From: a virus
Lineage: Duplodnaviria; Heunggongvirae; Uroviricota; Caudoviricetes
Length of the DNA: 64,000 nt
Direction: 5' to 3' (one strand)
IMG/VR virus record: IMGVR_UViG_3300046524_000235
Under the pieces are notes generated by a model. The model ran no database searches. It was not told the DNA's origin and saw nothing but the letters and a program-made list of their open reading frames with translations. Positions 20,403 to 52,438 of the stretch are shown here, piece by piece. The position numbers and the translations under genes were made by a program. The stretch's first letter is position 1. Each line of letters begins with the position of its first letter.

Positions 20403-21020
20403 TTAGTCGTCGTGCTTGCCGTCGTAATGACCTTTCCAGTACCCTTTATTCAATTCTCCGTTTATTGCCTTAACAAGAGTTTGAGCGGGAGCTTCTCTCA
20501 GAGCAAGCATCATTGCGAAGTTAGCAATATCGGTAGGGTCACCCTTGTACAAGTGTTCAACCAACATATCTGCAAGTTTATCAACACTGCACCTTTCAGG
20601 ATTGTCCCAACCGCCACGACCTTTCTCCCGAGCTTTAGCGAGCTTCGCTTTCATCATTGCTGCAAACTTATCCACAGCAACGTCGTCGGGATGAGGTTCT
20701 TCAACGGGTTGTTTGAAGCCCTGAAACATCTTCCTCAACTCTTCCATTCCCGCTTCAACTTGTCGAGCAGCTTCTGCAAAGGCCTCATACTGAGCAAATT
20801 GAACCGGAGACTTTTCATGTCCCAGAGCTTCAAGCATCATCTTCAGATCTTGCAAAGCAATTTCTCTATTCTTGTGCTGAGACCTGTGCGTATCACATGT
20901 AGCAGAAGCTCCTGTCGGGATATGAGTTGCACGAACCCCTACCCCCATAGAGGAGCCTACCCACGTTCTAGGCTCCGTATAAAACACATCTAACTTAATG
21001 TCTTTTGGATCAAGTTCCAT
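20403..21020 (-). CDS. release-factor (RF-1/GGQ-domain) homologue lacking the GGQ motif
   Basis: VRATHIPTGASATCDTHRSQHKNREIAL aligns to RF1 [28 protein letters not shown]. The position of SGAGGQHVN is occupied by PRTWVGSSMGVG, so there is no GGQ. Confidence 0.6.
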   Translation of the reverse strand: MELDPKDIKLDVFYTEPRTWVGSSMGVGVRATHIPTGASATCDTHRSQHKNREIALQDLKMMLEALGHEKSPVQFAQYEAFAEAARQVEAGMEELRKMFQGFKQPVEEPHPDDVAVDKFAAMMKAKLAKAREKGRGGWDNPERCSVDKLADMLVEHLYKGDPTDIANFAMMLALREAPAQTLVKAINGELNKGYWKGHYDGKHDD

Positions 21021-21273
21021 TTTTAGTATCTCTCATTGCATAGGCGAAGTCACCAAGGCTTGAGGCTTCTTCTGCCATTTGTTTAAGTTCTTTGATTCTT
21101 TCGGCCAGCGTAATCACTGCCTGAGCCGATGTGCTGATTACACCTTCAGCTTTGTACTTCTCCGCCAGCGCCAGAGCTTCGTTGATTGTCATTGTTGACA
21201 TTCTCCGTTTCGTCTTTGTAAAGATGAGCCTCACAGAACATGAAAGCTCGTCCCAGTTTGTCCACATGCACAA
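21010..21273 (-). CDS. hypothetical protein (87 aa)
   Basis: Intact ORF. Confidence 0.35.
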   Translation of the reverse strand: MCMWTNWDELSCSVRLIFTKTKRRMSTMTINEALALAEKYKAEGVISTSAQAVITLAERIKELKQMAEEASSLGDFAYAMRDTKNGT

Positions 21274-21586
21274 GCGAGCCGCTAAATTGACTCAGCTTAG
21301 TCGGTGACTTGGACCTACACCCGTCGCATTGATTGATCATTTTAGGTAAAGCACGATAGAGACGAAAGAAAATACAAAGAATCCTCCTGCAAAGAAAAGT
21401 TCGAATACAGTTGAGACTTTTCTTCCAGTAGGAAGATTTGTTTCTCGAATAGTAAGCACACCGAGAAGTAAACTGAGAATACAAAGAGTAATGTCGAGAA
21501 TAATATGAAACATAGATATACAAAAAGAAAAGTTAGGGGATACAGCACCAGGACCAGCCTAAGCCAGTCCCGGTGCGGTTCAGTTG

Positions 21587-21799
21587 TTACGCCGAACGTC
21601 GCGGATGATCCGGACCAGGCTTGATTTTGAACGGCATCAGAGCCGTTGCTTTACCGATGTTGTTGCCATTTTCAGCGAGTGCTTTCTGAAGATCGAAACC
21701 AGCGTCTTTGTTAAGCTGGTCACGGACCTTCTTCAGTTCTTGCTTGTTGTCGTGCGAGTGCTCGCCGTTCGTGCCACGGATGATCCAAACTTTCTTCAT
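21587..21799 (-). CDS. hypothetical protein (70 aa)
   Basis: Intact ORF. Confidence 0.4.
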   Translation of the reverse strand: MKKVWIIRGTNGEHSHDNKQELKKVRDQLNKDAGFDLQKALAENGNNIGKATALMPFKIKPGPDHPRRSA

Positions 21800-21859
21800 T
21801 TACAACTCCAGTATGGTTATTTTGTGAGAAGCCTAGAACTAGTCTAGGCACATGAATAC

Positions 21860-22252: not shown

Positions 22253-22408
22253 TTCTTGGTTTAAAACTTCATCGAGTTTTGATAAGGAAAAAACAAACTA
22301 CTACTACAGTTGACCCACTACTTGTGTGTACTCCGAGTAGTGAGCCGTAAAGAAATGATTATGTGTTCCGTAATATACTTATACCAAGCCATATCACGAA
22401 ACTTGAAA

Positions 22409-23248
22409 TCAGTTTGCTTTGAACTGAAACTGGGTGCTTGCACCGGAACCGAGTTGATAGACCGGAAGTTTACCGTCCCATTTCTCGATCCACATCTGTT
22501 GCAGGATTTCCGGATTCTTGGCTAGTGCTTGACCACGAATAACCGTAGCCTGAGCATCGTTTGCTGCGATCTTCAGATCAGCATCCGAGTTTGCAATACG
22601 CTTTGCAGCTTCAGCCTGCGTCTTCTGCAGTTGGTTTTGCGAAGTGATTGCATCCATCTTTGCTTGTTGCTGTGCATTGATAGAAGCCTGGATTGCTTCC
22701 GGCCAATGGAAGGCACCGACGTTCGAAAGAAGCTCTACCGTCAGGCCATTAGGTGCTGCACGCTTGATAAGTTCAGCGTTGACCTTCGACATGAACGCGG
22801 GAATGTCATTGCTGATTTCATCGAACGTCAGATTGCCAGCAACTTCATTCAGGCTGTCACGAATCAGGTTACGAAGCGGACCCATCGTAATGCCATCAAG
22901 GTCTTTGTGATACTTCTGGAAGACGAGCGGAGCATTGTCTGCCGATATGTGGTACGAAATGCCGAAGTCAGCGTTGATGGCTACGCCGCCCTTTGCTTGA
23001 AACGTTACCGATTCATCGCTCGGATGACCTTCTTCCGGAGCCTTGCTGTACACGTAGTTTTCCGTGAACGTCGGATACTCGTACACAGTCGTGTTCCAGC
23101 CAGTAAAGTAACGGCCAGGGCCAAGAACCTTGGTTTGTACGCCACGGTCGCTGCCGTACATGTCTACCTGAACACCTACGAAGCCCGTTTCGACTTTGCT
23201 ACAAGCAGCGAGAAGCAGGGCTGCGATGATGAGGAAAATACGCTTCAT
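22409..23248 (-). CDS. SPFH/band-7 (prohibitin/HflK-like) lipoprotein
   Basis: MKRIFLIIAALLLAAC|S lipobox, then an SPFH-like domain and a Gln/Ala-rich coiled-coil. Start moved from 23314 to the MKRIF Met. Confidence 0.55.
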   Translation of the reverse strand: MKRIFLIIAALLLAACSKVETGFVGVQVDMYGSDRGVQTKVLGPGRYFTGWNTTVYEYPTFTENYVYSKAPEEGHPSDESVTFQAKGGVAINADFGISYHISADNAPLVFQKYHKDLDGITMGPLRNLIRDSLNEVAGNLTFDEISNDIPAFMSKVNAELIKRAAPNGLTVELLSNVGAFHWPEAIQASINAQQQAKMDAITSQNQLQKTQAEAAKRIANSDADLKIAANDAQATVIRGQALAKNPEILQQMWIEKWDGKLPVYQLGSGASTQFQFKAN

Positions 23249-23442
23249 TTCTTGGTTTTGCCTTTGAGAAAAAAGTGCCACACACAGAATGCTGTGAGTG
23301 GAATTGTGAGCCACAGGAGCGGGACGAGTACAATCAGATCTCCGCCATCATTCACTAACGACTTCGTTAGCGGCAACAGCAGAACCAGAAAGTACAGCGT
23401 CGCCAGAATCCCGTAAGAGACGAGAATGAGTTTCTTGTACAC
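23245..23442 (-). CDS. small membrane protein (65 aa)
   Basis: Two TM helices. Confidence 0.35.
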   Translation of the reverse strand: MYKKLILVSYGILATLYFLVLLLPLTKSLVNDGGDLIVLVPLLWLTIPLTAFCVWHFFLKGKTKK

Positions 23443-23443
23443 T

Positions 23444-23836: not shown

Positions 23837-23885
23837 TATTTCTCCTTGAAGAAGACCGAGATTTCTCCCGGCCCTCAGTTACGCT

Positions 23886-26030: not shown

Positions 26031-26081
26031 TAAAAAAGGACCTCGATATTAGCTGAGGTCCTGCGAAAAGCATGTGCTGCG

Positions 26082-26155
26082 TGGGCCATTCTGGACTTGA
26101 ACCAGAGACCGGACGATTATGAGTCGTCTGCTCTAACCAACTGAGCTAATGGCCC
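26082..26155 (-). tRNA. tRNA-Met or Ile2 (anticodon CAT)
   Basis: Cloverleaf: GGGCCAT/ATGGCCC acceptor, GCTC-AGTTGGTTA-GAGC, anticodon loop CTCATAA, T arm TCTGG-TTCAAGT-CCAGA. Confidence 0.75.
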
Positions 26156-26172
26156 ACATAGCACACGCCAAC

Positions 26173-26243
26173 TAAAACAAGGGGGACTCGAACCCCCAGC
26201 GTCACAAGAGTTTGTGCTGCTCTACCGATTGAGCTATTGTTTT
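26173..26243 (-). tRNA. tRNA-like element / probable pseudo-tRNA (anticodon not assignable)
   Basis: All-A·U acceptor AAAACAA/TTGTTTT, good D arm and GGGGG-TTCGAGT-CCCCC T arm. The only clean anticodon stem (CACAA/TTGTG) encloses a 4-nt loop. Confidence 0.35.
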
Positions 26244-26264
26244 AAAAAGATATTCTCTTTTACA

Positions 26265-26280
26265 ATTCTCTTATACCACG
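26265..26280 (-). promoter_or_regulatory. promoter-like motif upstream of the tRNA pair
   Basis: Plus-strand attctcttataccacg. Confidence 0.4.
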
Positions 26281-26290
26281 GTCAGGTACA

Positions 26291-26533
26291 TTAATTGATT
26301 AACGCTTCGCCGTCAACAATCGTCAACGTACCTTTAACAACGCATGCCGCTTTGGTATGTACGTTATCGGGAGTCTCTTTTGTTGTAAAGCCAATACCCG
26401 GCGAGATATGTATGTGAGTGACGTACTCCGTCTTACCGTTAACTTTGATGACCCAAGGAGGAATCGATTGATCCAGATTGTGCGCTTTGTTAAAGTGAAA
26501 GACAATTTTATCCTTTTTCATGCTGCCCTCCAC
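26291..26533 (-). CDS. hypothetical protein (80 aa)
   Basis: Intact ORF. Confidence 0.35.
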   Translation of the reverse strand: MEGSMKKDKIVFHFNKAHNLDQSIPPWVIKVNGKTEYVTHIHISPGIGFTTKETPDNVHTKAACVVKGTLTIVDGEALIN

Positions 26534-26832
26534 AGACGCATATTGCTAAACAACTTTCGTTGTTCGTCAGTGACGGGTGCAGTGGTGATAGACGTGTAAC
26601 CCATGTCATCGTCTGGTTCGAAGAAGTCATAGAATTGAATGTTATTTGCCCAGATTTTATCTCTGAGTTTCATAAGCTCTTCTTTGTTCTTAACTTCGAG
26701 CAGAATGAGTGACGGAATTTTTCCGTTAAGGGGGTTTGACTCGTTTCCAGCATGAAAAGCTGAATGAGCAGTCTGAACGATTTGATCAGCGAGGGGAATA
26801 TCTTTGCGAATGATTGAATAGATGTAAGACAT
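26518..26832 (-). CDS. hypothetical protein (104 aa)
   Basis: Intact ORF. Confidence 0.4.
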   Translation of the reverse strand: MSYIYSIIRKDIPLADQIVQTAHSAFHAGNESNPLNGKIPSLILLEVKNKEELMKLRDKIWANNIQFYDFFEPDDDMGYTSITTAPVTDEQRKLFSNMRLWRAA

Positions 26833-26948
26833 GATTTTCTCTTTAAATGAATTAGGTACTGCAATTTACTGCGCCAAATTTCAATTCAAAGAGTGTCTTA
26901 CGGAGGTTTTGTAACCTAGAGCTTATTAAGCTTCATGATGTTTCCTTT

Positions 26949-27393: not shown

Positions 27394-27416
27394 GATGAAC
27401 CTTGTGGTGAAAACGA

Positions 27417-35685: not shown

Positions 35686-35700
35686 ACTCTTATACCAAAT
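35686..35700 (-). promoter_or_regulatory. promoter-like motif upstream of tRNA-Leu
   Basis: Plus-strand actcttataccaaat. Confidence 0.4.
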
Positions 35701-41710: not shown

Positions 41711-44131
41711 TTAAAGACGCGGATCCATTTCTTTCTCTTGGTTGAGTTGCGAGATCATCTTCACAATCAACTCAGTCATTGCAGGACCGTTGTCAGCCGA
41801 AAGCATCTTCGTTGCCAGTTCGAACTCCTTGATAGAGACCTTCAGTTTACCACCAACTCGCTTCTGCTTGCACAGTGCTTCGTAGCGACGTTTGTAGTCG
41901 AAGCCATAGACGAGAGTCAGGTAATTTTCATTCCGGACTTTCATATACGGTGCTACGTCTTCAGGTCCGGCGAGAGGTTTAATGACAACACCCTCCATGC
42001 CGTGTTCGATAGTCAGTTCCTTGAAGAAGTTTTCAGCCATTTGCAGCTGGCTCTCATCATCGAGATCGATGACCAGCCAGTCATCCCCATTCACTTCATC
42101 GAATGAGTCAGCTTGTTCAACGCGAGTAAATACATTGCCATCGATTTTCAGAATTGCAAACGGCTTGTAATATGGCTCGCCAGTTGCGGAGTACAGATTC
42201 AGCGTATCCGAAAACGTCTTCAGATCGTTCTCAAGCAAATCCTGAGCATCGATCTTCTGCTTAAAGTCAAGCTTAGCAAATTCTTCGTCCTGAGCAAGTG
42301 TCGAAAGCTCATAGTGTACAAGACCTTCATACGCTTTGAACTGCTCTTCAACAAGACCAGTACCAAGAGTCGTCCACGGCAGAAGCTCACCGTCCAGAAT
42401 AAGTTCATCGAACGAATTCGGAAGGAACTTTTCTTCATACTCAGCAAGAAGCTTCTGAAGCATAACAGTAAGCTCTTCTGTCATGCGAATCTTGAATCCA
42501 TTTCTGGAAACAAGGAAACACTTCTCCGGTTGACCGTGATACAGATACGCCTGACAACGTGAGCCCATGTACTTCGGTTGAATAGCAACCTGATCTACAC
42601 CCTTGTCTTTGAAGTACTTAAGACCAGCTTCAAGGCTTTCGATCTTACCTTCGGTTGACGGAGCCGGAGCCATCGTACCAGAAATGTACTTAATGCCGTT
42701 CTTCAGCGTACGATTCAAAAACTTCATGTCGTCTGGAGACAACTTATAATCATAAATGCTGAAGGGACGCTCCTTCAAACCGATAGGTACGGTCAAGTCA
42801 GACTTCAACTCTTTTTGATGCTCGACCAGCGACTCGGTCTTGACATCGACGTAAACATATCGATTGTTTTTGTACGAAAACGCAGTAAGCTTGTTACCGT
42901 ACACTGCTCCGGTATCCAGGAAGATCTTGTTACGGAACTCAATCTTACCGGCATTGTGAGCAACGTGACCGAATACATGAATAGGATGGTTACGAACAGC
43001 CTGATCGAAGATGAACTTGTACGCTTCACGATAGTCTTTATCACGACGACCGAAAAGATTACGCTGCGCCTTAAGTGCATCATTGCTCAGCTTACCCAGA
43101 TACTTGTTTTCACAAGGAGCATGGGTTACATACACGGTTCGTATATCCCGTCCAAATACTTTCAGGAACGGAGTAGAGTGATTGTCAAACAAGTCAACAA
43201 GCACGGCGGCAAGGTCAGGACGTTCCAGGAGAACCTTAAGTGAAGACATATACTTAGCCTCCAGTTCAAGATCAGGATTTTTGATTTCGCCCTTGATACG
43301 CTTCACAGCGTAGCTCTCATGGTTTCCGTGAATGATACGGCCACCTTCGTCAACAAACTTTGAAACCAGCCGAAGCATGTTCTCCGTGTCATTGCCTTTG
43401 TCTAGATAATCACCTACAAGAACGTTGATACTGTCCTTAGGCAACTTCTCCAGCATTTCAGTAAGACCCTTAACGTGCTCATGGGTATCACCGATGATGT
43501 TCAGCTCTTTGTTCGAAGTCAAGTACAAGCTGCTCTTGGCATAAACATCGAGGTCTTTGATTTCAACTTCGATATCAGCCCAGTACTTCGGATCACGTTC
43601 ACGGATACGGATGTTTCCGTCGTGTTCTTTTCGGCCAAGGTTAGGAAGAACGTGCTGCTTAAAACGAGCTGCACTGCTGTCTACTACTAGCTTTTCTTCC
43701 GGCGTAGATTCAGACGAATATGACTTATTGGTGTACTCGAAAGTAACCAGTTCAGTACGATACTCGTTGGTTTCCGCAAGAGTCCTGACTTTCTTTCGGA
43801 ACTCGTCGTTCATGCCAGTCGTATCAACGATCACGAACTCGCTGTTGACAGGGAACATGATCGCAGCTTCAAGTTTCGCCATCAAGACCTTAAACGCGGC
43901 CTCTGAAGCCTCCGCCATGAGCGGGGAATACCGATGGAGGTTCTTATGGCCGTAAAGGCTCTCACGCTCGGAATCGGAGCTGATAATAGGAATTGCACAG
44001 CTCGCTCCAAGCCCTGCTTTGGCCATTTCTTCGCCAAGCGCAAGTTGAAGTTGGTGTGAGAACGTGCTCTTACCGCACATCGAAGGTCCGACGAGAATAA
44101 AAACGGTATGGAGCTTAGTTTCGATTTTCAT
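41711..44131 (-). CDS. Pnkp-like RNA repair enzyme: polynucleotide kinase - metallophosphatase - ligase
   Basis: P-loop (VGPSMCGKST), calcineurin-like phosphoesterase motifs (GDTHEH, GDYLDKGN, GNHE), C-terminal KxDG nucleotidyltransferase motif (LKIDGN). Confidence 0.6.
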   Translation of the reverse strand: MKIETKLHTVFILVGPSMCGKSTFSHQLQLALGEEMAKAGLGASCAIPIISSDSERESLYGHKNLHRYSPLMAEASEAAFKVLMAKLEAAIMFPVNSEFVIVDTTGMNDEFRKKVRTLAETNEYRTELVTFEYTNKSYSSESTPEEKLVVDSSAARFKQHVLPNLGRKEHDGNIRIRERDPKYWADIEVEIKDLDVYAKSSLYLTSNKELNIIGDTHEHVKGLTEMLEKLPKDSINVLVGDYLDKGNDTENMLRLVSKFVDEGGRIIHGNHESYAVKRIKGEIKNPDLELEAKYMSSLKVLLERPDLAAVLVDLFDNHSTPFLKVFGRDIRTVYVTHAPCENKYLGKLSNDALKAQRNLFGRRDKDYREAYKFIFDQAVRNHPIHVFGHVAHNAGKIEFRNKIFLDTGAVYGNKLTAFSYKNNRYVYVDVKTESLVEHQKELKSDLTVPIGLKERPFSIYDYKLSPDDMKFLNRTLKNGIKYISGTMAPAPSTEGKIESLEAGLKYFKDKGVDQVAIQPKYMGSRCQAYLYHGQPEKCFLVSRNGFKIRMTEELTVMLQKLLAEYEEKFLPNSFDELILDGELLPWTTLGTGLVEEQFKAYEGLVHYELSTLAQDEEFAKLDFKQKIDAQDLLENDLKTFSDTLNLYSATGEPYYKPFAILKIDGNVFTRVEQADSFDEVNGDDWLVIDLDDESQLQMAENFFKELTIEHGMEGVVIKPLAGPEDVAPYMKVRNENYLTLVYGFDYKRRYEALCKQKRVGGKLKVSIKEFELATKMLSADNGPAMTELIVKMISQLNQEKEMDPRL

Positions 44132-45438
44132 GCTTGATCCTTGTTCTTAGTTACTACCACCATCGTCGAAGTAGCAATGTTATTTACACTATCACCGATT
44201 CCTTGAACAGAAATAGAGATTGCATGACCTTCCGAAACATTCCAGAACCAGTCACCGAATTCTTTAAGGCCCGGCTCCCACTTGTGATCATCATGACGGA
44301 ACTGTGTTTCGTCCATCAGATAGTTCACATTGAATTCCTTGTTAGGAACCGTGAGAATCAGCTTGTTGAAGTTAGTCTTCAGCACGGCTTGAATCAGCTC
44401 TGCTGCGACATCCTTTTCCATGTGTTCAAGCACTTCAGTGATGAGTACATCAGCTCCATCGAATAGAGCGCTGCAATCGTCAATTGATTCAGGAGTTGCT
44501 GCTTCTTTGAAGGTGATATTCTCAACTCCTCGACCACTGGCTTTCCCCACGGCGTTCTCACGTACTTCGTCATCCGCTTCATACGCAAGGATTTGTTCAT
44601 ACTTTGCACTGAGCGGGATCGAATAATTGAGTTCGCCGCACCCAATGTCAATGAGGACCGACCCTCCTCCCAAATGCGGGAAGATAGCCTCTTTACGTTG
44701 ACTGAGAGTGTCCCCGTGCCAGAGGTTAATACTGGGCGTATCGAGCAACGGCTTGTTTTTAGCAAAGGTTTCACGATTCGTAAACACATTCCGTTTAAAG
44801 AGGTATCGGATGAAGTAAGGTGCATCGATGCGATTAATTGCATTGATGTACTTTTCAATGATATCTCCCTTAAGGTTGACGTAAATGCTCTTTGTCGTAA
44901 CGCAGAACATCAAGAAAATAACCATTGCTGCATTCAGAAGATGATGAACACTAGGTCCGACAATGCGAACTTTGTATGCATGACCAGAAATCAGTTCTGC
45001 ATGAAAGCTGTAGCCTTGATCGAAACCAAACGGCCCATTGAAATGTTGCTCCATGTGCCTAAGCGTGCTTGCACTGCGAATCTCAACCGTAGTTTCGAGC
45101 CATGCGCTAAAAGGAACACTAGCATCTTCTTCCTGATGTTCTTTGAACGCAGTTGCCAGGCAGTTCGTCATCAGGCTAATCGGAAGGTACGGCGAAGCAT
45201 AGCGAGTACGATCAAGATACTCAAACTCCTGGTCCCGCCCTTCGGCAAATGAGCAGTGCAGAGCATGATCCTTGAACCACAACCTAAAAGCTTGGTCTCC
45301 TTCTAGAAACCATCCGTACACTGAACCTTGTCGGATGGACTTCTTAAACGGATCTTTCGATTCACGAATCGTTGCGGGGTTTTTCTGAATGACCCAAGAA
45401 AACTTCGGGTTACTAGACCCAAGAGTAAGCACTGACAT
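44128..45438 (-). CDS. Hen1-like RNA 3'-terminal 2'-O-methyltransferase
   Basis: C-terminal SAM-MTase motifs (VLIDIGCGELNY, DVLITEVLEHM). About 250-aa N-terminal domain. Translationally coupled to the Pnkp-like gene. Confidence 0.5.
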   Translation of the reverse strand: MSVLTLGSSNPKFSWVIQKNPATIRESKDPFKKSIRQGSVYGWFLEGDQAFRLWFKDHALHCSFAEGRDQEFEYLDRTRYASPYLPISLMTNCLATAFKEHQEEDASVPFSAWLETTVEIRSASTLRHMEQHFNGPFGFDQGYSFHAELISGHAYKVRIVGPSVHHLLNAAMVIFLMFCVTTKSIYVNLKGDIIEKYINAINRIDAPYFIRYLFKRNVFTNRETFAKNKPLLDTPSINLWHGDTLSQRKEAIFPHLGGGSVLIDIGCGELNYSIPLSAKYEQILAYEADDEVRENAVGKASGRGVENITFKEAATPESIDDCSALFDGADVLITEVLEHMEKDVAAELIQAVLKTNFNKLILTVPNKEFNVNYLMDETQFRHDDHKWEPGLKEFGDWFWNVSEGHAISISVQGIGDSVNNIATSTMVVVTKNKDQA

Positions 45439-45507: not shown

Positions 45508-45522
45508 CACTTATACCAAAAT
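45508..45522 (-). promoter_or_regulatory. promoter-like motif upstream of the Hen1-Pnkp operon
   Basis: Plus-strand cacttataccaaaat, next to a GATAGGA-CGAA-TCCTATC hairpin. Confidence 0.4.
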
Positions 45523-45710
45523 CATAGGTATTGTGTGAAAGGTCCAGTTGGATCTGGTTGGCGAGTGAAGGTTGCTGGGCCTTTAAAGGCGTCTTCATAA
45601 TAACCGCAAGACTTACATTCTACCCAAAGAGGTGCATTGACTAGACGGTGTTTATTCAATTCGCCGCATTCAGGGCATTCTTCTAGGATATTGGTCATTG
45701 CAGTTTCCAC
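45522..45710 (-). CDS. zinc-ribbon protein (62 aa)
   Basis: CPECG…CKSCG. Confidence 0.4.
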   Translation of the reverse strand: METAMTNILEECPECGELNKHRLVNAPLWVECKSCGYYEDAFKGPATFTRQPDPTGPFTQYL

Positions 45711-46699
45711 ATTTCGTAAGACCGTTTTACATCTTCGGTCAGTTGTTCCAATTTCAGACTATCTACCATTCTCTGAAAGGCTTCTCTGTCTTCACCTCTG
45801 TAATCAGACATGAAGTTTCCAAGCTCTTTACCGGTAAGGCCAGTCCACTCAGATACGTTATTACCGTTGAACTTATCCTTAACACGCTCTGCTCGGAAAT
45901 AGTCAAGCGTGGCCTTGATAAAGTTCAGACCTATCTCTTGTGGCTCAGCTTCAGAAGCCAGCAGGATGCCGAGATCTTTTGAACCTCGCTTATCATTAAG
46001 ATGTTTATTATCCATCCACTCCAAGAAAAGCATATACGTATTGCGTTTCTTATCACGGACTCGGCCTACAGCATTACGATTTTCCAACAGGTAATTCCAC
46101 TTAGTGAAGTACTTGCTTGAGATTACGTATTCAAAGATAGCTTCCAGGTTATCAAATCCCAATGCATACCTGGAAGGGTCGTATCCGAGAAGATCGAGGG
46201 CCTTTTCAAAGTTCTGAGTGATACAGATTTCTTTGACAAGAGTGGTTCCGACGATGTACTTATACCAGAGACCGTCGTGGCCAAACTTGAGACCGAGCCC
46301 ATGAGCAGTCTGACCGATAAGATTACCAAGATCATTGAAAGCAAAATACTTAAAGGCAAAGTCATGGATTTCTCTAGGGACGGTAATGAAATCAATTTGA
46401 AAAATGGTTCGCTTAAACATCAAACCAGAAATGTCTAAAGCGAAAGAGATAACGTTTCCGTTAGTGTGAACCTCAGGAGAGTTAAGAGCTTTTTCGCAAA
46501 ACTCTCTAAGAGTCTTTATCTCAATACCTGAAATCAGAATGTCAAGATCACCAAAACTCTCTTTCTCTCTATATGCCGGAATAACTGAAATGATTGCGTC
46601 TGGAAAAGCTTCTTTAAGAACAGTACTCGTACCTTCTGCTACATAGTCGTAGTACTGTTTCTCCAGACGGACTGCATTGCTGATTGCATTACCGCCCAT
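45695..46699 (-). CDS. nucleotidyltransferase-fold protein (function unknown)
   Basis: SFGDLDILISG resembles the Pol-beta-superfamily G…DxD motif. Confidence 0.35.
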   Translation of the reverse strand: MGGNAISNAVRLEKQYYDYVAEGTSTVLKEAFPDAIISVIPAYREKESFGDLDILISGIEIKTLREFCEKALNSPEVHTNGNVISFALDISGLMFKRTIFQIDFITVPREIHDFAFKYFAFNDLGNLIGQTAHGLGLKFGHDGLWYKYIVGTTLVKEICITQNFEKALDLLGYDPSRYALGFDNLEAIFEYVISSKYFTKWNYLLENRNAVGRVRDKKRNTYMLFLEWMDNKHLNDKRGSKDLGILLASEAEPQEIGLNFIKATLDYFRAERVKDKFNGNNVSEWTGLTGKELGNFMSDYRGEDREAFQRMVDSLKLEQLTEDVKRSYEMWKLQ

Positions 46700-46925
46700 G
46701 ACTTCCTCACTTTTTTGCAGCTACAAGATCTGAACCAAACTTTACAACGATAATTACGAGTGCAACCGGAAGGGTGATCGGCCAGAACAGACAAGCAAAG
46801 CCAAGCAGAAGTCCATACACAAACATATGAATCGTGTGGTAAGGCAACTGACGTTTCTTGTTAAGACCAAGAGCTACCGTAAAGGCAGCTACCCACAACA
46901 GAATTGCGAATAACAGATAGTCCAC

Positions 46926-47651: not shown

Positions 47652-47653
47652 TG

Positions 47654-48103: not shown

Positions 48104-49812
48104 TATGCCTTCTTCTTAAATAACATATCGTTAATTGCTTCTTGCGTTACGCCGCGATGTACTTGTTCTACTTGACCCCAGTTAAAGCCGATTTCACCTT
48201 CAACTCCAATCGGAAGATCAAGCCAATCAAAGTTTTCGACAGGCCATTCGTTCATATAGTAGAACGCTGTTTCAATTACTTGTGCTGCATTCTCAATCGG
48301 AATCTCAAACTCAATCGAATCGTACACAGTACAGATTGACTTGTTACGGGGATCAAGTTTCTTGATTGCTTCATTCAGATTAGCGAATGTAACTAGACCA
48401 AGAGTTGAAGTCGCACTTTGAATCCGTACGTTCTGAGCATTTCGAAGAGATGCGTTATACGCTGCAGTCTTCTTGAATACTTCTTGTGCTACATACTCAT
48501 GCTTGTACTGACCAAATGGAGTCCACACCTTCTGATTCCAACGAGCCATGTTATGTGACTCCTCAATGTAGTCCTTAACTCCAGGATATGCATTGAAGTA
48601 CATGTTGACCAGACGCTCAGCCTCGTCCTTCTCAATCGCTAGCTGCATTGCAATACCGCCGACTGACGAACCATACAAAATCGAGAACGTCAAAGTCTTA
48701 GCAACTTGTCGCATACGCTTGTATTCTTTGTTAAGCGCATTAGTCTTATCTTCAAGAACGTGAATGTAATCGTCGTACGGAATTCTCATCATAGCACTTG
48801 CGGAATAGGAGTGAAAATCAAGTCCCTCAGCAATTGCCTTCAGCATATTCTTGTCTTTACAGATTGCTCCGAGAATCTTTACTTCCGCTGACGAAAAATC
48901 GAAAGCAATAAACACATTACCGGAGTCAACAGTATAACATTCCCTAACGTTGTAGCCATGTTTTGGCCGAGGTAACTGTGTAAGATTTGGGGAATCACCA
49001 GTGATGCGAAAACTACTAGTACCGAACATGTTATAGCTAGGATGAATACGACCATCACGCTTAACAAAGTCTTCGACATACGTTTTGATGAACGTGTTAT
49101 GTACACTGTTGATATCCTTTCTTTTAGCCATGTCTGCCAAGAACTGAAACTTGGGGTCTTCGGCAGTATATTGGTTGGCTAGTGGATTTAAACCAGCCAA
49201 GGTTAAGAGTGCAGCACCGTCAGTTGCATCGTCACCAGACTTCGTTTTAAACGGGGCAACAAACCCTAACTCTTCATAGAGCAACTTGCCGACTTCCGTG
49301 CCGGAATCAAGGTTAATACGTTTGCCTAATGCTGTGAAAATCTTCTCGTCAAATTCTTCAACTTCACGAACCATCTGCTCAGAGATCTTACGGTTACGAT
49401 CTACGTCATAGACCATTCCGTTAATTTCCAAGTCAATGATGAATTCGTGACACATCATCTCTGTATTGACAATCGATTCGATAATCGCTGGAGCCTTGGC
49501 CTTAATTGGCGCTCCTGTCGGTCCTGCAATCTGAACTTCCTGCGGCTTGACCATTGCTGGCCATAAACCTGTCAGAACCTCTGACGTTACGATATTGTCG
49601 ATACCTGCATATACATACAAGTCTTCGCTATCAAAGTCCTCGTATGTACGGTAGATCTTCTTTTCTAATACCGGTTCTTCTACCTTTGGCTTAGGCTCTG
49701 CTTTCTTGCGAGTTTTTTTCTCTACTGGCTGTTCAACTACCGCTGCAACAATCTTCTCTTCTAGAATCTGCTCAGTTGACTTCTTTGCTTTTGGATCTAC
49801 GCGCTTAATCAC
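48103..49812 (-). CDS. DNA polymerase I family (family A), polymerase domain part
   Basis: Pol A motif A (FIAFDFSSAEVKIL) and motif B (RQVAKTLTFSILYG). Begins with GTG or an alternative start 8 nt inside the upstream ORF. Confidence 0.8.
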   Translation of the reverse strand: MIKRVDPKAKKSTEQILEEKIVAAVVEQPVEKKTRKKAEPKPKVEEPVLEKKIYRTYEDFDSEDLYVYAGIDNIVTSEVLTGLWPAMVKPQEVQIAGPTGAPIKAKAPAIIESIVNTEMMCHEFIIDLEINGMVYDVDRNRKISEQMVREVEEFDEKIFTALGKRINLDSGTEVGKLLYEELGFVAPFKTKSGDDATDGAALLTLAGLNPLANQYTAEDPKFQFLADMAKRKDINSVHNTFIKTYVEDFVKRDGRIHPSYNMFGTSSFRITGDSPNLTQLPRPKHGYNVRECYTVDSGNVFIAFDFSSAEVKILGAICKDKNMLKAIAEGLDFHSYSASAMMRIPYDDYIHVLEDKTNALNKEYKRMRQVAKTLTFSILYGSSVGGIAMQLAIEKDEAERLVNMYFNAYPGVKDYIEESHNMARWNQKVWTPFGQYKHEYVAQEVFKKTAAYNASLRNAQNVRIQSATSTLGLVTFANLNEAIKKLDPRNKSICTVYDSIEFEIPIENAAQVIETAFYYMNEWPVENFDWLDLPIGVEGEIGFNWGQVEQVHRGVTQEAINDMLFKKKA

Positions 49813-51064
49813 TTTCTACTTCCTCTTCGTCTTCTTCAGTCTCTTCACCTTCTTCAGGTGCATTCTTAGTTAGCTTTGGTAATAGGTCTTCGTAACCACC
49901 CAGTCCAGTCCAAGGAACAATATCCCAGACTGCTGTTTTCAGCGAGTACGTACCCTGAGCCCCACTATCTAGACTGTGTAAAACTAAAAGAGTATCAAAT
50001 GCCATATTCTTTACACGAACTTTTGTCGTGTGCCAAATATATAAGATATCGAACTTTATGTTGTGGCCTACTTTTGGCCTATCGCTCTCTAGGAACAGTT
50101 TTACAAATTCCCAAGCTTCATCTGCGTTGTACATCTTATTCTCACGATGCCACAACGGAATTACCAAAGCCTTTACTTGCTTGTCAACCTGATCTCTATA
50201 TCCAAACTGAACACACAGAAGCTTTGCATTCTCAGCCAGTCCATCCAGACTAGTCGTTTCAGTATCTAGACTTACAATTGCATTTGCAGGAAGTTTAATC
50301 AACGTATTCATAAAATCCTTTACGTCGTCAAGGCTTCTCGCTACTCGAATTCGGTTCTCTTTATAGAACTTGATTGCTTCTTCAAGAGTAGGCGGTTTTA
50401 AATGCCCTGTAGCCATCGCTACGGCCTTCTTGAAGTCCCGGAGGATCACGCCATACAACTCTTGACCCCAGAAGGCCCCAGAGGCGTTCTGACGAATCAT
50501 CGTCAATGCTCTTGGATGAATTGTGATGATTACATTATCAATGTACTCGCCACGATTACCCGTGTTACTGTGCTTCTTATATCCAAGTGCTTTAGTGACT
50601 GCTGTTGCCAGACTGATAATCACTTTAGGTTTGCAACGCTCTATCTCTTCTAAAAGATAAGGCTTGCATTTCATAAGCTTTGTTGCAGTCGGTGCTTTAC
50701 CCTTTGGGAAGTCTTCTTCGTTAGGAGCACACTTAAGCAAGTTTACAAGACGGTATTTCAAATCTCCGAATCCTGCTTGCTTGCAGAGATGGTGAATAAT
50801 GTCTTGTTGAATCTTCTCTTGCTGTCCTTCTACTCTGTCCCACTTCCCAGCAGGTGCCGCATGGTCCTGAATGATCAGGATGTCTACTTCGTTTTGAGCA
50901 AGACGTACGTTGTTGTACGATTTGCATTTCAGCTTACAGACTTTGTCGCAATATGTTTGACTAATCTTGCTGAAATCTTCCTTGCTATGGATTGCCACTT
51001 CTACAGACGTTGTAATCTTTCTTTCATACAACTCGTTCAGTGGAAGATCTGAGATCTTTGCCAT
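49805..51064 (-). CDS. DNA polymerase N-terminal part: UDG-like domain + 3'-5' exonuclease
   Basis: Exo I motif (VSLDTETTSLD). N-terminal region is family-4 UDG-like (as fused to SPO1-type Pol A). Acidic C-terminus. Confidence 0.7.
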   Translation of the reverse strand: MAKISDLPLNELYERKITTSVEVAIHSKEDFSKISQTYCDKVCKLKCKSYNNVRLAQNEVDILIIQDHAAPAGKWDRVEGQQEKIQQDIIHHLCKQAGFGDLKYRLVNLLKCAPNEEDFPKGKAPTATKLMKCKPYLLEEIERCKPKVIISLATAVTKALGYKKHSNTGNRGEYIDNVIITIHPRALTMIRQNASGAFWGQELYGVILRDFKKAVAMATGHLKPPTLEEAIKFYKENRIRVARSLDDVKDFMNTLIKLPANAIVSLDTETTSLDGLAENAKLLCVQFGYRDQVDKQVKALVIPLWHRENKMYNADEAWEFVKLFLESDRPKVGHNIKFDILYIWHTTKVRVKNMAFDTLLVLHSLDSGAQGTYSLKTAVWDIVPWTGLGGYEDLLPKLTKNAPEEGEETEEDEEEVESD

Positions 51065-51128
51065 TGTTTCTTTCTTCCGTTAAAACGTTATTATCTCATT
51101 GAACAGAAGGCTCAACAAGACTTGACTT

Positions 51129-51608
51129 TTAGTTGCTATAGTATCCTGAAACCAGCCATGCTGGTTCCGTGTAGCTTATACCATACTTCTCGCAGAAATT
51201 GCGCAGTCTATCGATCTCTTCTTGAGACACTTCCAGGTCCTCTGGATCGAGCTTTGTGCAATCCCAGATTTCTCCTACTGATACCTTCTTTGAATACAGA
51301 ATGTATGCAGGATATTCACTTGTGCCGTAGTGTTCTATTCCGACGCCTACATTTTCCAAGGCGTTATGCTTAGCATCCCAGTAAGCACAATACAACTCCT
51401 TGGTTTCTTCTGAATAATCTTCTGTTGGGTGCACTACTCCTAATTCTTTCAGAATCAAACTTTCAACAGCGTCTCCAACGCCATCGTAGTTTTCTTCTCC
51501 CACCGCTTCCCGAAGAGTATTTTCAAACTTCTCAAACTCTTCGTAGTCATCTTCGATACCCCCTAGATCAATACCGAAAACTAACTTTATATCTATACTC
51601 ATCCCCAT
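51129..51608 (-). CDS. hypothetical acidic protein (159 aa)
   Basis: Intact ORF. Confidence 0.4.
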   Translation of the reverse strand: MGMSIDIKLVFGIDLGGIEDDYEEFEKFENTLREAVGEENYDGVGDAVESLILKELGVVHPTEDYSEETKELYCAYWDAKHNALENVGVGIEHYGTSEYPAYILYSKKVSVGEIWDCTKLDPEDLEVSQEEIDRLRNFCEKYGISYTEPAWLVSGYYSN

Positions 51609-52438
51609 TACTGCCCCGCATGAAAAAGTCTAAACGAACCTTGACTCACAGTAAGCGACGTGAGCTTAGGAACATCATTAATAACTTCAATTGCACTTCT
51701 GATTACTTCTCTTGATGCTGGCTTGTTAGCGTCAGGAATCAACGACCAAGTATGGTCATCAATCGCTACGAGCTTCTTAAACTTCTTGGTGAACGTACCT
51801 TGCCTAAAAGATTCAGGATAGTCGTGGAAGTTAATCCCTACTTGTCGAAGCATTTCAATTTTCTCAGCAGTGTTTTTATGAAGCAACTCTGAGTTGTTGA
51901 AGACCGTGTGCGCAGCCATGCTGACACTGTTCTTACGAGCATCCCACTGACGCCATACAAAGTAATCATATGCTTGCTCCCATTTTGGGAATTGGAATAC
52001 ACGAGCATCAAAGACTGGACGTGCTGCGAATTTGCTCGGCAGGAAGCCTTGCAAGTAACTGTTAAAAATCACTGAGCACTTTGCAGCATAGACGCTTAGC
52101 CATTTCTGAACCTTGCCATCAAAGTTCAGCTGTGCAGTAGGATCCCTATTAAACCAAAGAAGACTGATCTCATCGCTCTGGTGGTATGCCAGATCAGGAT
52201 TCAATTCCTTGATCAGATCATCCACTGTACATTGAAACGTTTGAGCCAGTTCTTTATCGTAGGGCTTGGTGAGACCCTTTGTGAATGTATGGAATGCGTT
52301 CCCATCAAAGCGAATGACAGTCGGCAGACCTGGCATCAAGTGTTCGCTGTTGTACTTCTTTTCATACCGCTTCATTTCGTCGCCAAGAGCGTTGAAATCA
52401 AGATGGCGAATTTCTTCTGTTATCTGTGTCTGTGTCAT
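51608..52438 (-). CDS. Thg1-like protein (tRNA-His guanylyltransferase family, 3'-5' polymerase)
   Basis: VIRFDGNAFHTFTKGLTKPYD matches the Thg1/TLP active-site signature. Start moved to ATG at 52438, because the track's TTG-initiated extension is the reverse complement of a hairpin. Confidence 0.55.
   Translation of the reverse strand: MTQTQITEEIRHLDFNALGDEMKRYEKKYNSEHLMPGLPTVIRFDGNAFHTFTKGLTKPYDKELAQTFQCTVDDLIKELNPDLAYHQSDEISLLWFNRDPTAQLNFDGKVQKWLSVYAAKCSVIFNSYLQGFLPSKFAARPVFDARVFQFPKWEQAYDYFVWRQWDARKNSVSMAAHTVFNNSELLHKNTAEKIEMLRQVGINFHDYPESFRQGTFTKKFKKLVAIDDHTWSLIPDANKPASREVIRSAIEVINDVPKLTSLTVSQGSFRLFHAGQ

What the first reader, a model, noticed from the sequence alone, without database searches (positions are those of the whole stretch)
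20403..52438. Concentration of translation and tRNA maintenance functions across this window
One 32-kb stretch encodes:
- about 21 tRNAs;
- an amber suppressor;
- a GGQ-less RF-domain protein;
- a PTH2-type peptidyl-tRNA hydrolase;
- a Thg1-like enzyme;
- Hen1 and Pnkp;
- a nucleotidyltransferase-fold protein;
- a homing-endonuclease-like gene in the tRNA island.

Taken together this looks like a coordinated counter-defence and translation-takeover module directed at host tRNA-cleaving or ribosome-stalling immunity. The GGQ-less RF domain, the suppressor and the PTH2 enzyme have not, as far as I know, been described as a phage set.
Basis: inference. Interest (0 to 1): 0.7.

Follow-up and report, generated by a model that had tools for sequence, protein, structure and literature searches.

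The report
Phage tRNA island plus RNA-repair toolkit
The early-gene region of an undescribed ~182-kb phage carries 22 tRNA genes and tRNA-repair and ribosome-rescue enzymes, a toolkit already described for large phages; what is unusual is a conserved stop-codon-reading tRNA, a release-factor-like protein lacking its catalytic motif, and a second PTH2-like gene.

Summary
The range holds 20 tRNA genes (22 in the window), a tRNA(CUA), an RF2-domain-3-like protein without GGQ, PTH2, a bacterial-type Thg1-like protein, overlapping Hen1-Pnkp genes, a Pol-beta-fold nucleotidyltransferase and a T5orf172 homing-endonuclease-like insertion. I also found a second, divergent PTH2-fold gene next to the suppressor.

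- These genes are not one module. They lie in at least six transcription units behind the phage's general promoter (TGGTATAAG, 18 copies), interleaved with polymerase, ribonucleotide reductase and RNase H genes.
- The core combination and its counter-defence reading are already published (XacN1 2018; Iyer et al. 2021).
- The phage is not recoded. Late genes are intact in the standard code.
- GGQ loss is lineage-specific. Three of seven related genomes keep GGQ.

Three features look new.
- All seven genomes keep a stop-codon-reading tRNA at one position, with anticodon CUA in four and UCA in three.
- The PTH2-like paralogue always follows that tRNA.
- The GGQ-less RF domain is under strong purifying selection (dN/dS 0.07).

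Verdict: a new variant of a known kind, of moderate interest.

The parts
20403..21020 (-). Two-domain protein of 205 aa. The N-terminal part is a bacterial release-factor peptidyl-hydrolase (RF-1) domain without GGQ (loop EPRTWVGSSMGVGV). A helical linker follows, then a conserved all-helical C-terminal domain (phrog_8298) of unknown function.
   Evidence: Pfam RF-1. PHROGs 20323 and 8298. PDB RF2 residues 228-298 at E 4e-8. Fold match. Family alignment. dN/dS 0.07 against relative A.
22379..22386 (-). TGGTATAA(G) promoter-like motif at the head of the unit that ends with the RF-domain gene.
   Evidence: Motif scan: 18 copies, all on the coding strand, 16 intergenic.
26081..26155 (-). tRNA-Met(CAT).
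26172..26244 (-). Odd tRNA-like gene with a 6-nt anticodon loop. It is conserved in relatives B, C and D.
26271..26278 (-). TGGTATAAG promoter-like motif upstream of the odd tRNA, tRNA-Met, and the AAA+ and SPFH genes.
   Evidence: Conserved in B, C, D and F.
26518..26832 (-). PTH2b, a divergent PTH2-superfamily paralogue of 104 aa. It lies just downstream of the suppressor tRNA in all seven genomes.
   Evidence: phrog_1866 at 6e-4. Pfam PTH2 at 0.11. hhalign 95.3%, E 2e-8, over 85 columns. Synteny.
27405..27480 (-). Amber suppressor tRNA(CUA) with A73 and an encoded CCA end.
   Evidence: Orthologues with compensatory stem changes carry CUA in A, B and C, and UCA in D, E and F.
29093..29169 (-). 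tRNA-Pro(TGG).
30020..30439 (-). tRNA block: Ile(GAT), Val(TAC), Met(CAT), Phe(GAA, found by Rfam only), Thr(TGT).
30445..31005 (-). T5orf172/MUG113-domain (GIY-YIG-like) homing-endonuclease-like gene. It is an insertion specific to this phage.
   Evidence: Pfam 28.9 bits against a cutoff of 20. phrog_5032. No homologue in relatives' syntenic loci. The Asp-Thr tRNA spacing is about 1.0 kb here and 0.36-0.47 kb in A, C and D.
31376..31580 (-). tRNA-Asp(GTC) and tRNA-Cys(GCA).
31588..32001 (-). PTH2-type peptidyl-tRNA hydrolase, embedded between tRNA-Tyr and tRNA-Cys.
   Evidence: Pfam 6.7e-32. PDB archaeal Pth2 at 1e-22. Same position in all relatives.
32166..32250 (-). tRNA-Tyr(GTA).
33204..33560 (-). 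tRNA block: Ser(GCT), Glu(TTC), Ser(TGA), Gln(TTG).
33779..34039 (-). tRNA block: Leu(TAG), Ala(TGC), Asn(GTT).
35544..35630 (-). tRNA-Leu(TAA), the first gene of the tRNA island.
35690..35697 (-). TGGTATAAG promoter-like motif at the head of the tRNA island.
41711..44131 (-). Pnkp, with a 5'-kinase (P-loop GPSMCGKS), a 2',3'-phosphoesterase (GDTHE, GDYLDKG, GNHE) and an RNA ligase domain.
   Evidence: Pfam AAA_33, Metallophos and PNKP_ligase. PDB Rnl 4xru at 5e-38 and Cth Pnkp. Motifs read from the translation.
44128..45438 (-). Hen1, with the N-terminal Hen1 domain and a 2'-O-methyltransferase domain. Its stop overlaps the Pnkp start by 4 nt.
   Evidence: Pfam Hen1_N at 3e-49. PDB 4xrp_C full length at 2e-29.
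45511..45518 (-). TGGTATAAG promoter-like motif directly upstream of Hen1-Pnkp.
45695..46699 (-). Pol-beta-superfamily nucleotidyltransferase-fold protein. Its substrate is unknown. It is not a recognisable CCA-adding or RlaP enzyme.
   Evidence: phrog_24943. Invariant G50, D51, D53 and D103. pLDDT 95. Pol beta/lambda fold hits. Adjacent to Thg1 in LR756508 and near it in V45v66.
51608..52438 (-). Thg1-like protein of the bacterial TLP type, a 3'-5' nucleotidyltransferase.
   Evidence: Pfam Thg1 at 1.3e-27. phrog_4717 at 2e-71. PDB 4kgk at 2e-35, with RxDG and SDE motifs conserved.
52569..52576 (-). TGGTATAAG promoter-like motif upstream of the unit running from Thg1 through the polymerase and RNase H to the NTase.
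14626..15310 (-). tRNA-Arg(TCT) and tRNA-Lys(TTT), outside the finding's range.

Best explanation
The stretch is the early/middle accessory arm of a standard-code lytic phage of about 182 kb. Its closest GenBank relatives, at about 45% polymerase identity, are Vibrio phage D69 and Salmonella phage Arash. The stretch carries a dispersed translation-maintenance toolkit of the kind already described for large phages. It is not one operon.

The working parts are separate units behind the same generic extended -10 promoter, TGGTATAAG.
(a) A 20-gene tRNA island supplies phage-made tRNAs. These can replace host tRNAs that are scarce or have been cut.
(b) PTH2 is co-transcribed inside the island and frees tRNAs trapped as peptidyl-tRNA.
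(c) The Hen1-Pnkp pair heals and seals tRNAs broken in the anticodon loop. It 2'-O-methylates the junction so that it cannot be re-cut.
(d) A bacterial-type Thg1-like enzyme rebuilds damaged tRNA 5' ends.
(e) A Pol-beta-fold nucleotidyltransferase probably restores lost 3' nucleotides.

Added to this known repertoire are three conserved extras whose roles are inferred only.
- A stop-codon-reading tRNA.
- An adjacent divergent PTH2-fold protein.
- A standalone release-factor domain protein. In this lineage it has replaced GGQ, so it most likely binds the ribosomal A site and peptidyl-transferase centre without hydrolysing.

Shown here: sequence and fold membership, synteny, promoter sharing and selection. 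Inferred: all activities, and the link to host defence.
For: - Domain and fold calls.
- Catalytic motifs intact in Pnkp, Thg1-like and the NTase.
- Hen1 and Pnkp overlap by 4 nt and have their own promoter copy.
- PTH2 lies 8 nt from tRNA-Cys, inside the array, in all five close genomes.
- PTH2 is linked to tRNA arrays across 58 unrelated viral loci. 20 of 58 have five or more tRNAs, against 0 of 80 terminase-centred controls.
- The full gene order is conserved in A-D, and its RF-domain-proximal part in E and F.
- 18 copies of TGGTATAA lie on the coding strand only, heading both the translation-gene units and the replication, RNR and NAD units.
- Hen1, Thg1 and PTH2 recur together in XacN1, CM1 and RAS14.
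- The NTase-like gene is adjacent to Thg1 in LR756508 and near it in V45v66.
- No recoding: coding density is 0.85 in the early regions and 0.95 in the late regions under code 11, with intact ORFs of 500-1,070 aa around the terminase.
- Literature: PMC5852040, PMC7824862 section 3.4.9, PMC4411300, PMC10264068.
Against: - The host is unknown and no tRNA-targeting defence has been identified.
- No expression or biochemical data exist.
- The tRNA island could serve codon supply alone.
- The NTase-like protein sits in the polymerase/RNase H unit and resembles family X DNA polymerases, so it may act on DNA.
- The RF-domain protein, PTH2b and the suppressor have no demonstrated function.
- The RF-domain gene is 24 kb from Hen1-Pnkp.
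- Genomes with the opal suppressor still end 24-27% of genes in TGA, so strong suppression would extend many of the phage's own proteins.
- About 76 kb of the genome was not examined.
Confidence: 0.65

Rival explanations
1. The genes form a code-change module. The suppressor tRNA and the RF-like protein switch the infected cell to a TAG-sense (or TGA-sense) code, so that recoded late genes can be translated, as in recoded gut phages.
For: - A suppressor tRNA and an RF-domain protein are both conserved in seven genomes.
- TAG is a rare stop in the amber-suppressor genomes: 1-2 of 54 shared genes, against 7 of 54 in the opal genome D.
- Borges et al. describe suppressor, aaRS and RF modules.
Against: - No gain in ORF length or coding density when TAG or TGA is read as sense, in 64 kb of window and about 50 kb in each of four relatives.
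- The same holds in 21-kb late-gene regions around the terminase of this phage and its relatives, where density is 0.95 and ORFs up to 1,071 aa are intact.
- The RF-like protein has no codon-recognition domains and no GGQ.
- No gene's stop codon co-varies with the anticodon.
- Opal-suppressor genomes use TGA normally as a stop.
Confidence: 0.04
2. This is ordinary accessory content with no defence link. The tRNAs match phage codon usage to a host with a different tRNA pool. PTH2, Thg1-like and Hen1-Pnkp merely process and maintain the phage's own tRNAs during massive late translation. The RF-like gene and the suppressor are tolerated passengers.
For: - tRNA islands with homing endonucleases occur in relatives that lack the repair genes. 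D69 has 22 tRNAs and HNH genes, with no Thg1, PTH2 or Hen1 in the 42 kb examined.
- The generic promoter is shared with housekeeping genes.
- Codon compensation is the classical view (abstract of PMC10264068).
Against: - In bacteria Hen1-Pnkp is a damage-repair system, not a maturation system (PMC4411300, PMC3675462).
- No tRNA-His is encoded, so a Thg1-type enzyme has no phage tRNA-His to mature.
- The GGQ-less RF domain (dN/dS 0.07) and the suppressor (compensatory stem changes) are under selection, so they are not passengers.
Confidence: 0.2
3. The genes form a single co-regulated counter-defence regulon. All listed genes would be a coordinated module that is gained and lost together.
For: - Synteny of the whole set is conserved in the clade.
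- The promoter class is shared.
- Hen1, Thg1 and PTH2 co-occur in three unrelated jumbo phages.
Against: - The promoter is not specific to these genes.
- The set is interleaved with replication genes.
- Conserved synteny within one clade also covers NrdAB, PolA and the other genes, so it says nothing specific about this set.
- Outside the clade, PTH2 has Thg1 within 10 kb in 3 of 58 loci and never Hen1, Pnkp or the RF domain.
Confidence: 0.1

Closest known systems
Translation-related gene set of Xanthomonas jumbo phage XacN1 (PMC5852040)
   Same: One phage combines many tRNAs with tRNA-His guanylyltransferase (Thg1-like), an adjacent PNKP and Hen1-like methyltransferase, a nucleotidyltransferase and a PTH2-type peptidyl-tRNA hydrolase. 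tblastn confirms Hen1 and PTH2 homologues in XacN1.
   Different: XacN1 is a 385-kb jumbo phage whose 56 tRNAs lie in terminal repeats. Its NTase is a CCA-adding enzyme. No suppressor tRNA, RF-domain protein or PTH2b is reported. The proteins are only 28-48% identical.
RNA-repair and ribosome-rescue repertoire of jumbo phages (Iyer, Anantharaman, Krishnan, Burroughs, Aravind 2021, PMC7824862, section 3.4.9)
   Same: The logic is the same. Phage tRNAs replace cleaved host tRNAs. Kinase, phosphoesterase and ligase enzymes heal and seal. NTases and Thg1 restore the ends. PTH2 releases peptides from cleaved tRNAs. TROVE/Ro60 has a tRNA-like partner, and one is present just outside this window.
   Different: This genome is about 182 kb, below the usual jumbo threshold. 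The review mentions neither Hen1, nor release-factor-domain proteins, nor suppressor tRNAs.
Bacterial Pnkp/Hen1 and Pnkp1-Rnl-Hen1 RNA repair systems (PMC3675462, PMC4411300)
   Same: Hen1 aligns full-length to 4xrp_C. Pnkp has the kinase, phosphoesterase and ligase modules. The two genes are adjacent and overlapping.
   Different: The system is phage-encoded, which is true of only 5 of 50,697 GenBank phage records. The ligase domain is closer to the separate Rnl of the three-component system, but here it is fused as in classical Pnkp.
Phage 'code change module' of suppressor tRNA, aaRS and RF1/RF2 in stop-codon-recoded phages (Borges et al., bioRxiv 10.1101/2021.08.26.457843)
   Same: A phage-encoded suppressor tRNA occurs together with a release-factor-related gene. 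That paper also notes standard-code phages that carry suppressor tRNAs.
   Different: There are no recoded genes here. The RF-related protein is a single domain without codon recognition and without GGQ. No aaRS was seen. The anticodon switches between CUA and UCA among close relatives with no change of code.
Standalone bacterial-type release-factor peptidyl-hydrolase domains: ArfB, PrfH and the inactive MRPS35 (Burroughs and Aravind 2019, PMC6514570; PrfH-RtcB, PMC9304027)
   Same: The architecture is an isolated RF catalytic domain, a linker and a helical C-terminal region, as in ArfB. MRPS35 is a precedent for a Gln-less, non-catalytic version. PrfH is a precedent for an RF paralogue linked to RNA repair.
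   Different: The C-terminal domain here is a different, phage-wide globular helical domain (phrog_8298). GGQ is present in some orthologues and replaced in others, with Gln changed to Trp in several. The protein is not adjacent to a ligase. The family is not described in those papers, which contain no mention of 'phage'.
T4 and T5-type tRNA regions with homing endonucleases (for example SegB in the T4/T6 tRNA region, PMC13096335)
   Same: A GIY-YIG-like mobile endonuclease gene is inserted between tRNA genes and shows presence/absence polymorphism among relatives.
   Different: The domain here is T5orf172/MUG113, not Seg-type. Activity, and any role in amplifying the tRNA locus, are untested.

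Membership tests
Pnkp/Hen1 RNA repair system | Pnkp has 5'-kinase, 2',3'-phosphoesterase and adenylyltransferase/ligase modules. | tested here: met
   Pfam AAA_33, Metallophos and PNKP_ligase. The P-loop and metallophosphoesterase motifs were read in the translation. PDB hits to Rnl and Cth Pnkp.
Pnkp/Hen1 RNA repair system | Hen1 has its N-terminal domain and a C-terminal 2'-O-methyltransferase domain. | tested here: met
   Hen1_N at 3e-49 plus methyltransferase hits. Full-length alignment to 4xrp_C.
Pnkp/Hen1 RNA repair system | The two genes are adjacent and co-transcribed. | tested here: met
   Hen1 spans 44128-45438 and Pnkp 41711-44131, overlapping by 4 nt. One promoter motif lies at 45518. 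The same order is seen in A-D. Co-transcription itself is inferred.
Pnkp/Hen1 RNA repair system | Repair of cleaved tRNA with 2'-O-methylation of the junction. | not testable with these tools
   This needs biochemistry.
PTH2 peptidyl-tRNA hydrolase | Full-length match to the PTH2 family above the curated threshold. | tested here: met
   110.5 bits against a cutoff of 23, covering profile positions 2-115 of 115. Archaeal Pth2 structures at 1e-22.
PTH2 peptidyl-tRNA hydrolase (for PTH2b, 26518-26832) | Match to the PTH2 family above the curated threshold. | tested here: not met
   Pfam gives 13.1 bits against a cutoff of 23. Superfamily-level homology only: hhalign 95.3%, E 2e-8. The 'DAGxT' region is replaced by 'EPDDD'. 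PTH2b is filed as PTH2-fold-like, not as a PTH2 enzyme.
Thg1 / Thg1-like protein (TLP) | Thg1 catalytic domain with conserved metal-binding carboxylates. | tested here: met
   Pfam Thg1 at 96.7 bits against a cutoff of 29.2. 'RFDG' and 'HQSDEISLL' align with BtTLP 4kgk.
Thg1 / Thg1-like protein (TLP) | Bacterial TLP subtype rather than eukaryotic Thg1. | tested here: met
   4kgk (Thg1-like) at 2e-35, against eukaryotic Thg1 at 1e-8 to 1e-12. The C-terminal Thg1C domain is below threshold.
Class I release factor / ArfB-type rescue factor | RF peptidyl-hydrolase domain fold. | tested here: met
Class I release factor / ArfB-type rescue factor | Catalytic GGQ motif. | tested here: not met
   GGQ aligns to R-T-W in this phage and in A. 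GGQ is present in B, C, D and P0006.
Class I release factor / ArfB-type rescue factor | Codon-recognition domains 2 and 4 (RF1/RF2), or the basic C-terminal tail of ArfB. | tested here: not met
   Only residues 2-71 align to RF2. The C-terminal part is an unrelated conserved helical domain, phrog_8298, with no Pfam hit.
Nonsense suppressor tRNA | Canonical cloverleaf with a 7-nt anticodon loop reading a stop codon. | tested here: met
   Rfam 74.8 bits. Loop CUCUAAA with anticodon CUA. Orthologues show compensatory stem changes.
Nonsense suppressor tRNA | Aminoacylation and read-through in vivo. | not testable with these tools
   There is only an indirect hint: TAG stops are rarer in the CUA genomes (1-2 of 54) than in D (7 of 54), Fisher p 0.0096, not corrected for phylogeny.
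Phage stop-codon recoding ('code change') module | In-frame reassigned stop codons in late or lysis genes. | tested here: not met
   About 105 kb of about 182 kb was examined.
Pol-beta superfamily nucleotidyltransferase | NTase fold with the GS/GD...DxD motif and a third carboxylate. | tested here: met
   G50, D51, D53 and D103 are invariant in 42 sequences. Pol beta/lambda hits with probability 1.0.
CCA-adding enzyme or RlaP RNA-repair NTase | Match to the family profiles (PolyA_pol PF01743, RlaP PF10127). | tested here: not met
   No Pfam family matched even at E 10. Only gene-neighbourhood evidence links the protein to tRNA repair.
Homing endonuclease (GIY-YIG-like T5orf172) | Endonuclease-type domain together with presence/absence polymorphism at a conserved site. 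| tested here: met
   T5orf172 and MUG113 are above their cutoffs. The gene is absent from relatives, which have a shorter Asp-Thr spacer. Nuclease activity was not tested.

The most novel reading that the evidence does not exclude
Three genes form a phage system that manipulates translation termination or stop-codon-stalled ribosomes in a standard-code phage. They are a stop-codon-reading tRNA whose anticodon toggles between CUA and UCA, the divergent PTH2-fold protein always encoded next to it, and the standalone release-factor domain protein whose GGQ can be replaced (Gln to Trp) while staying under strong purifying selection. One possible mode of action: the system keeps ribosomes moving when a host defence inactivates release factors or stop-codon decoding. 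Another: it imposes read-through on host mRNAs. This would be a new class of phage takeover or counter-defence mechanism, distinct from both tRNA repair and genetic-code switching.
Probability: 0.12. Interest if true: 0.75.

Novelty: new variant of a known kind. Interest (0 to 1): 0.45.

Why it matters
Large phages are increasingly seen as carrying kits that keep translation running when the host attacks its own tRNAs and ribosomes. This clade is not represented in GenBank. It packs an unusually complete kit into about 182 kb: tRNA island, PTH2, Hen1-Pnkp, Thg1-like, an NTase, and Ro60 with a Y-RNA-like element nearby.

It also adds parts that the published repertoire lacks. A suppressor tRNA has been kept for a long time in phages that do not recode any gene examined. 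It raises a concrete, testable question about why a standard-code virus would want stop codons read. The release-factor domain is selected for even after losing its catalytic motif. It offers a natural probe for non-hydrolytic A-site binding.

If the three extras work together, they would define a new way for viruses to interfere with termination. If they do not, the locus is still a well-delimited example for testing phage RNA-repair counter-defence.

Tried and rejected
- **Close relatives in GenBank.** Megablast of 20 kb against GenBank phages found nothing. Relatives had to be found by protein.
- **Trp origin of the suppressor.** I first guessed by eye that the suppressor derives from tRNA-Trp. 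It is not close to the phages' own tRNA-Trp(CCA). Only E and F carry the Trp-like G73. The amino-acid identity is left open.
- **Code-change and recoding hypothesis.** Rejected.
- **Programmed read-through of one phage gene.** No orthologous gene has TAG in the CUA genomes and TGA in D.
- **Link between GGQ status and suppressor type.** The seven-genome table shows no co-variation.
- **Terminase bait.** Searching with the D69 terminase to find this phage's own terminase gave no recognisable hit among the top 120. An alignment-based IMG/VR scan solved this.
- **C-terminal domain of the RF protein.** No Pfam hit even at E 10. It shows no similarity to D69's dATP/dGTP pyrophosphohydrolase. The 'MazG-like' idea therefore rests only on other people's annotations and was dropped.
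- **PTH2b.** The first shallow profile comparison was inconclusive (62%). Deeper alignments resolved it.
- **PDB sequence searches** for the NTase, the 241-aa TIM-barrel-like protein and PTH2b gave nothing.
- **DUF8296.** It could not be confirmed for the tandem ORFs with the local Pfam copy.
- **Not run.** I did not use the large representative-protein search or the metagenome and genome contig scans. They would not have changed the verdict.

Full report
**What is in the sequence**

Almost all genes lie on the minus strand. ARAGORN finds 21 tRNAs. Rfam adds one more at 30282-30354, which reads as tRNA-Phe(GAA). That gives 22 in the window and 20 inside 20403-52438.

- **RF-domain protein, 20403-21020.** It passes Pfam RF-1 at 37.6 bits against a cutoff of 35. 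It aligns to RF2 residues 228-298 at E 4e-8, with GGQ opposite 'TWVG-SS'. Its N-terminal domain superposes on RF2/RF1 domain 3.
- **PTH2, 31588-32001.** A full-length PTH2 at 6.7e-32. Archaeal Pth2 structures match at 1e-22.
- **Thg1-like, 51608-52438.** It has an intact catalytic domain. It is closest to the bacterial Thg1-like protein 4kgk (2e-35), well ahead of eukaryotic Thg1.
- **Hen1, 44128-45438.** It aligns full-length to the Hen1 of the Pnkp1-Rnl-Hen1 complex.
- **Pnkp, 41711-44131.** It has kinase, phosphoesterase and ligase modules.
- **NTase-like, 45695-46699.** It has no Pfam match. Residues G50, D51, D53 and D103 are invariant. The pLDDT-95 model hits DNA polymerase beta/lambda with probability 1.0.
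- **Homing-endonuclease-like, 30445-31005.** It carries a T5orf172/MUG113 domain. It is an insertion absent from relatives.

I also found a second PTH2-superfamily gene, PTH2b (26518-26832). It is below Pfam threshold. A profile-profile comparison with deeper alignments gives 95% probability, E 2e-8, over 85 of 104 residues.

**Where it comes from**

No GenBank phage is close at the DNA level. By polymerase, the nearest are Salmonella phage Arash and Vibrio phages D69, D148 and D181, at about 45% identity.

The window matches metagenomic contigs of up to 181,869 bp exactly. Six related genomes were recovered. A-D come from IMG/VR. E and F came through the RF-domain family.

A-D keep the whole order: Thg1-like, UDG/exo, PolA, RNase H, a 241-aa TIM-like protein, NTase, Hen1, Pnkp, NrdA, NrdB, the tRNA island with PTH2, the suppressor, PTH2b, an AAA+ protein, an SPFH protein, and the RF-domain gene. 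E and F keep the part that could be seen.

**Is it one module?**

No. A strong motif, TGGTATAA(G), occurs 18 times. All copies are on the coding strand and 16 are intergenic. The 17-mer version occurs 8 times against 0.19 expected by chance.

Copies lie upstream of these units:
- the unit beginning with Thg1-like (52576)
- Hen1-Pnkp (45518)
- the RNR block (41694)
- the tRNA island (35697)
- the odd tRNA, tRNA-Met, AAA+ and SPFH genes (26278)
- the unit ending in the RF-domain gene (22386)

Copies also lie upstream of NAD-salvage and other units. So the translation genes share a general early/middle promoter class with replication and nucleotide-metabolism genes. They are also physically interleaved with those genes: 17.5% of the range against 23%.

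Outside the clade, PTH2 has Thg1 within 10 kb in only 3 of 58 loci, and never Hen1, Pnkp or the RF domain.

Some linkage is real, however.
- PTH2 is embedded in the tRNA array in all close genomes.
- Unrelated PTH2 loci are about 23-fold richer in tRNAs than terminase-centred controls.
- Hen1 is rare, found in 5 of 50,697 records. It occurs together with Thg1 and PTH2 in XacN1, CM1 and RAS14.
- The NTase-like gene is adjacent to Thg1 in LR756508 and near it in V45v66.

**The suppressor tRNA**

It is a well-formed tRNA, conserved at one position in all seven genomes, with compensatory stem changes. Its anticodon is CUA in the window phage and in A, B and C. It is UCA in D, E and F. E and F have discriminator G73 and the others have A73.

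The phage is not recoded.
- Reading TAG or TGA as sense lengthens nothing in the early regions.
- The 21-kb late regions around the terminase of this phage (L117) and its relatives are 95% coding in the standard code, with ORFs up to 1,071 aa.
- No gene's stop codon co-varies with the anticodon.

A weak hint of in-vivo activity exists. Of 54 shared genes, TAG ends 1-2 in the CUA genomes but 7 in D (p 0.0096, not corrected for phylogeny). TGA is not avoided in the UCA genomes.

**The RF-domain protein**

It belongs to a small family with an RF domain joined to a conserved helical C-terminal domain. That C-terminal domain is widespread in phages on its own and has no Pfam model.

GGQ is intact in B, C, D and P0006. 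It is replaced in the window phage and in A, E, F and others. A Trp often sits at the Gln position. GGQ status does not track the suppressor anticodon.

The GGQ-less domain is not decaying. Between this phage and A, dN/dS is 0.07 for the domain and 0.09 for the former GGQ loop, at dS of about 0.7-0.9.

**Comparison with the literature**

- XacN1 (PMC5852040) already lists tRNAs, Thg1, a CCA-NTase, PNKP/Hen1 and Pth in one phage.
- Iyer et al. 2021 (PMC7824862) already interpret phage tRNAs, kinase, phosphoesterase and ligase enzymes, NTases, Thg1, PTH2 and TROVE as answers to tRNA-cleaving effectors.
- Borges et al. describe suppressor, aaRS and RF modules, and also standard-code phages with suppressors.
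- I found no description of a phage RF domain lacking GGQ, or of this family.

**Verdict**

The 'coordinated module' reading and the novelty claim are only partly supported. The core is a known kind of phage toolkit. Three features are the new and interesting parts: the conserved stop-codon-reading tRNA in a standard-code phage, its PTH2-like neighbour, and the selected GGQ-less RF domain. Their function is unknown.

Noticed in passing
window 26172-26244 (-): A tRNA-like gene has normal acceptor, D and T arms but only a 6-nt anticodon loop (AACUCU). It is conserved at 88% in relatives B and C (UACUCU) and in D, where the loop contains CCA. It is absent from A. It sits directly upstream of tRNA-Met and behind a conserved promoter motif. 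It could be a pseudo-tRNA, a frameshifting tRNA or a nuclease decoy.
   Followed up: partly
L085 12354-18179 (beyond window position 1, same strand as the window's genes): Just outside the window the genome encodes a YqeY-domain protein, then a Ro60 (TROVE+vWA) orthologue of 543 aa. A YrlA-like Y RNA match lies about 700 nt upstream of Ro60 (39.8 bits, below the gathering score of 69, E 4e-6). This RNA-quality-control pair extends the theme beyond the window.
   Followed up: partly
window, 18 sites on the minus strand (for example 52576, 45518, 41694, 35697, 26278, 22386, 20386, 6664): A phage-wide promoter-like motif, TGGTATAAG(A/T)G, resembles an extended -10 element without an obvious -35. 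It lies only on the coding strand and almost only between genes.
   Followed up: yes
window 17114-20334 (-): Eight tandem paralogous small ORFs of 114-148 aa, 28-46% identical to each other, lie immediately downstream of the RF-domain gene. The syntenic genes in relatives E and F carry precomputed hits to PF26948 (DUF8296). Their function is unknown.
   Followed up: partly
window 14626-15310 (-): Relatives A, C, E and F have tRNA-Trp(CCA) immediately after tRNA-Lys, upstream of tRNA-Arg. B has tRNA-Trp in this region without a called tRNA-Lys. This phage and D lack a detectable tRNA-Trp.
   Followed up: no
window 8721-11329 (-): The NAD-salvage genes nicotinamide phosphoribosyltransferase and a NadR-like NMN adenylyltransferase/NUDIX protein are also present in Salmonella phage Arash. 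They are a possible counter to NAD-depleting defences.
   Followed up: no
window 62561-63343 (+): This is the only sizeable plus-strand gene. It encodes a sigma-70-like protein (weak region 2 and region 4 hits). It is probably a phage sigma factor for later transcription, since D69 has an annotated sigma factor in the equivalent region.
   Followed up: no
window 22409-26030 (-): A 714-aa AAA+ ATPase and an SPFH/Band-7 lipoprotein-like protein are conserved as a pair between tRNA-Met and the RF-domain gene in all seven genomes.
   Followed up: no
window 28191-29127 (-): An acyl-carrier-protein-like gene (PP-binding domain) and a 216-aa phrog_1843 protein sit inside the tRNA island. Homologues were detected in relative A only.
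   Followed up: no
window 48103-51064 (-): The family A DNA polymerase is split into a UDG-like/3'-5' exonuclease ORF and a separate polymerase-domain ORF. In Arash and D69 the polymerase domain is split further.
   Followed up: no
L069 9696-10357: An unrelated 52-kb viral contig (PTH2 48% identical) has a tRNA(CTA) about 230 nt upstream of its PTH2 gene. This is a second, independent pairing of a suppressor with PTH2.
   Followed up: no
L169 10865-14154 (Vibrio phage RYC): In RYC, Hen1 is the N-terminal part of a 717-aa protein annotated as polynucleotide kinase. A homologue of the Pnkp ligase domain lies immediately upstream. This is a different arrangement of the same repair parts.
   Followed up: partly
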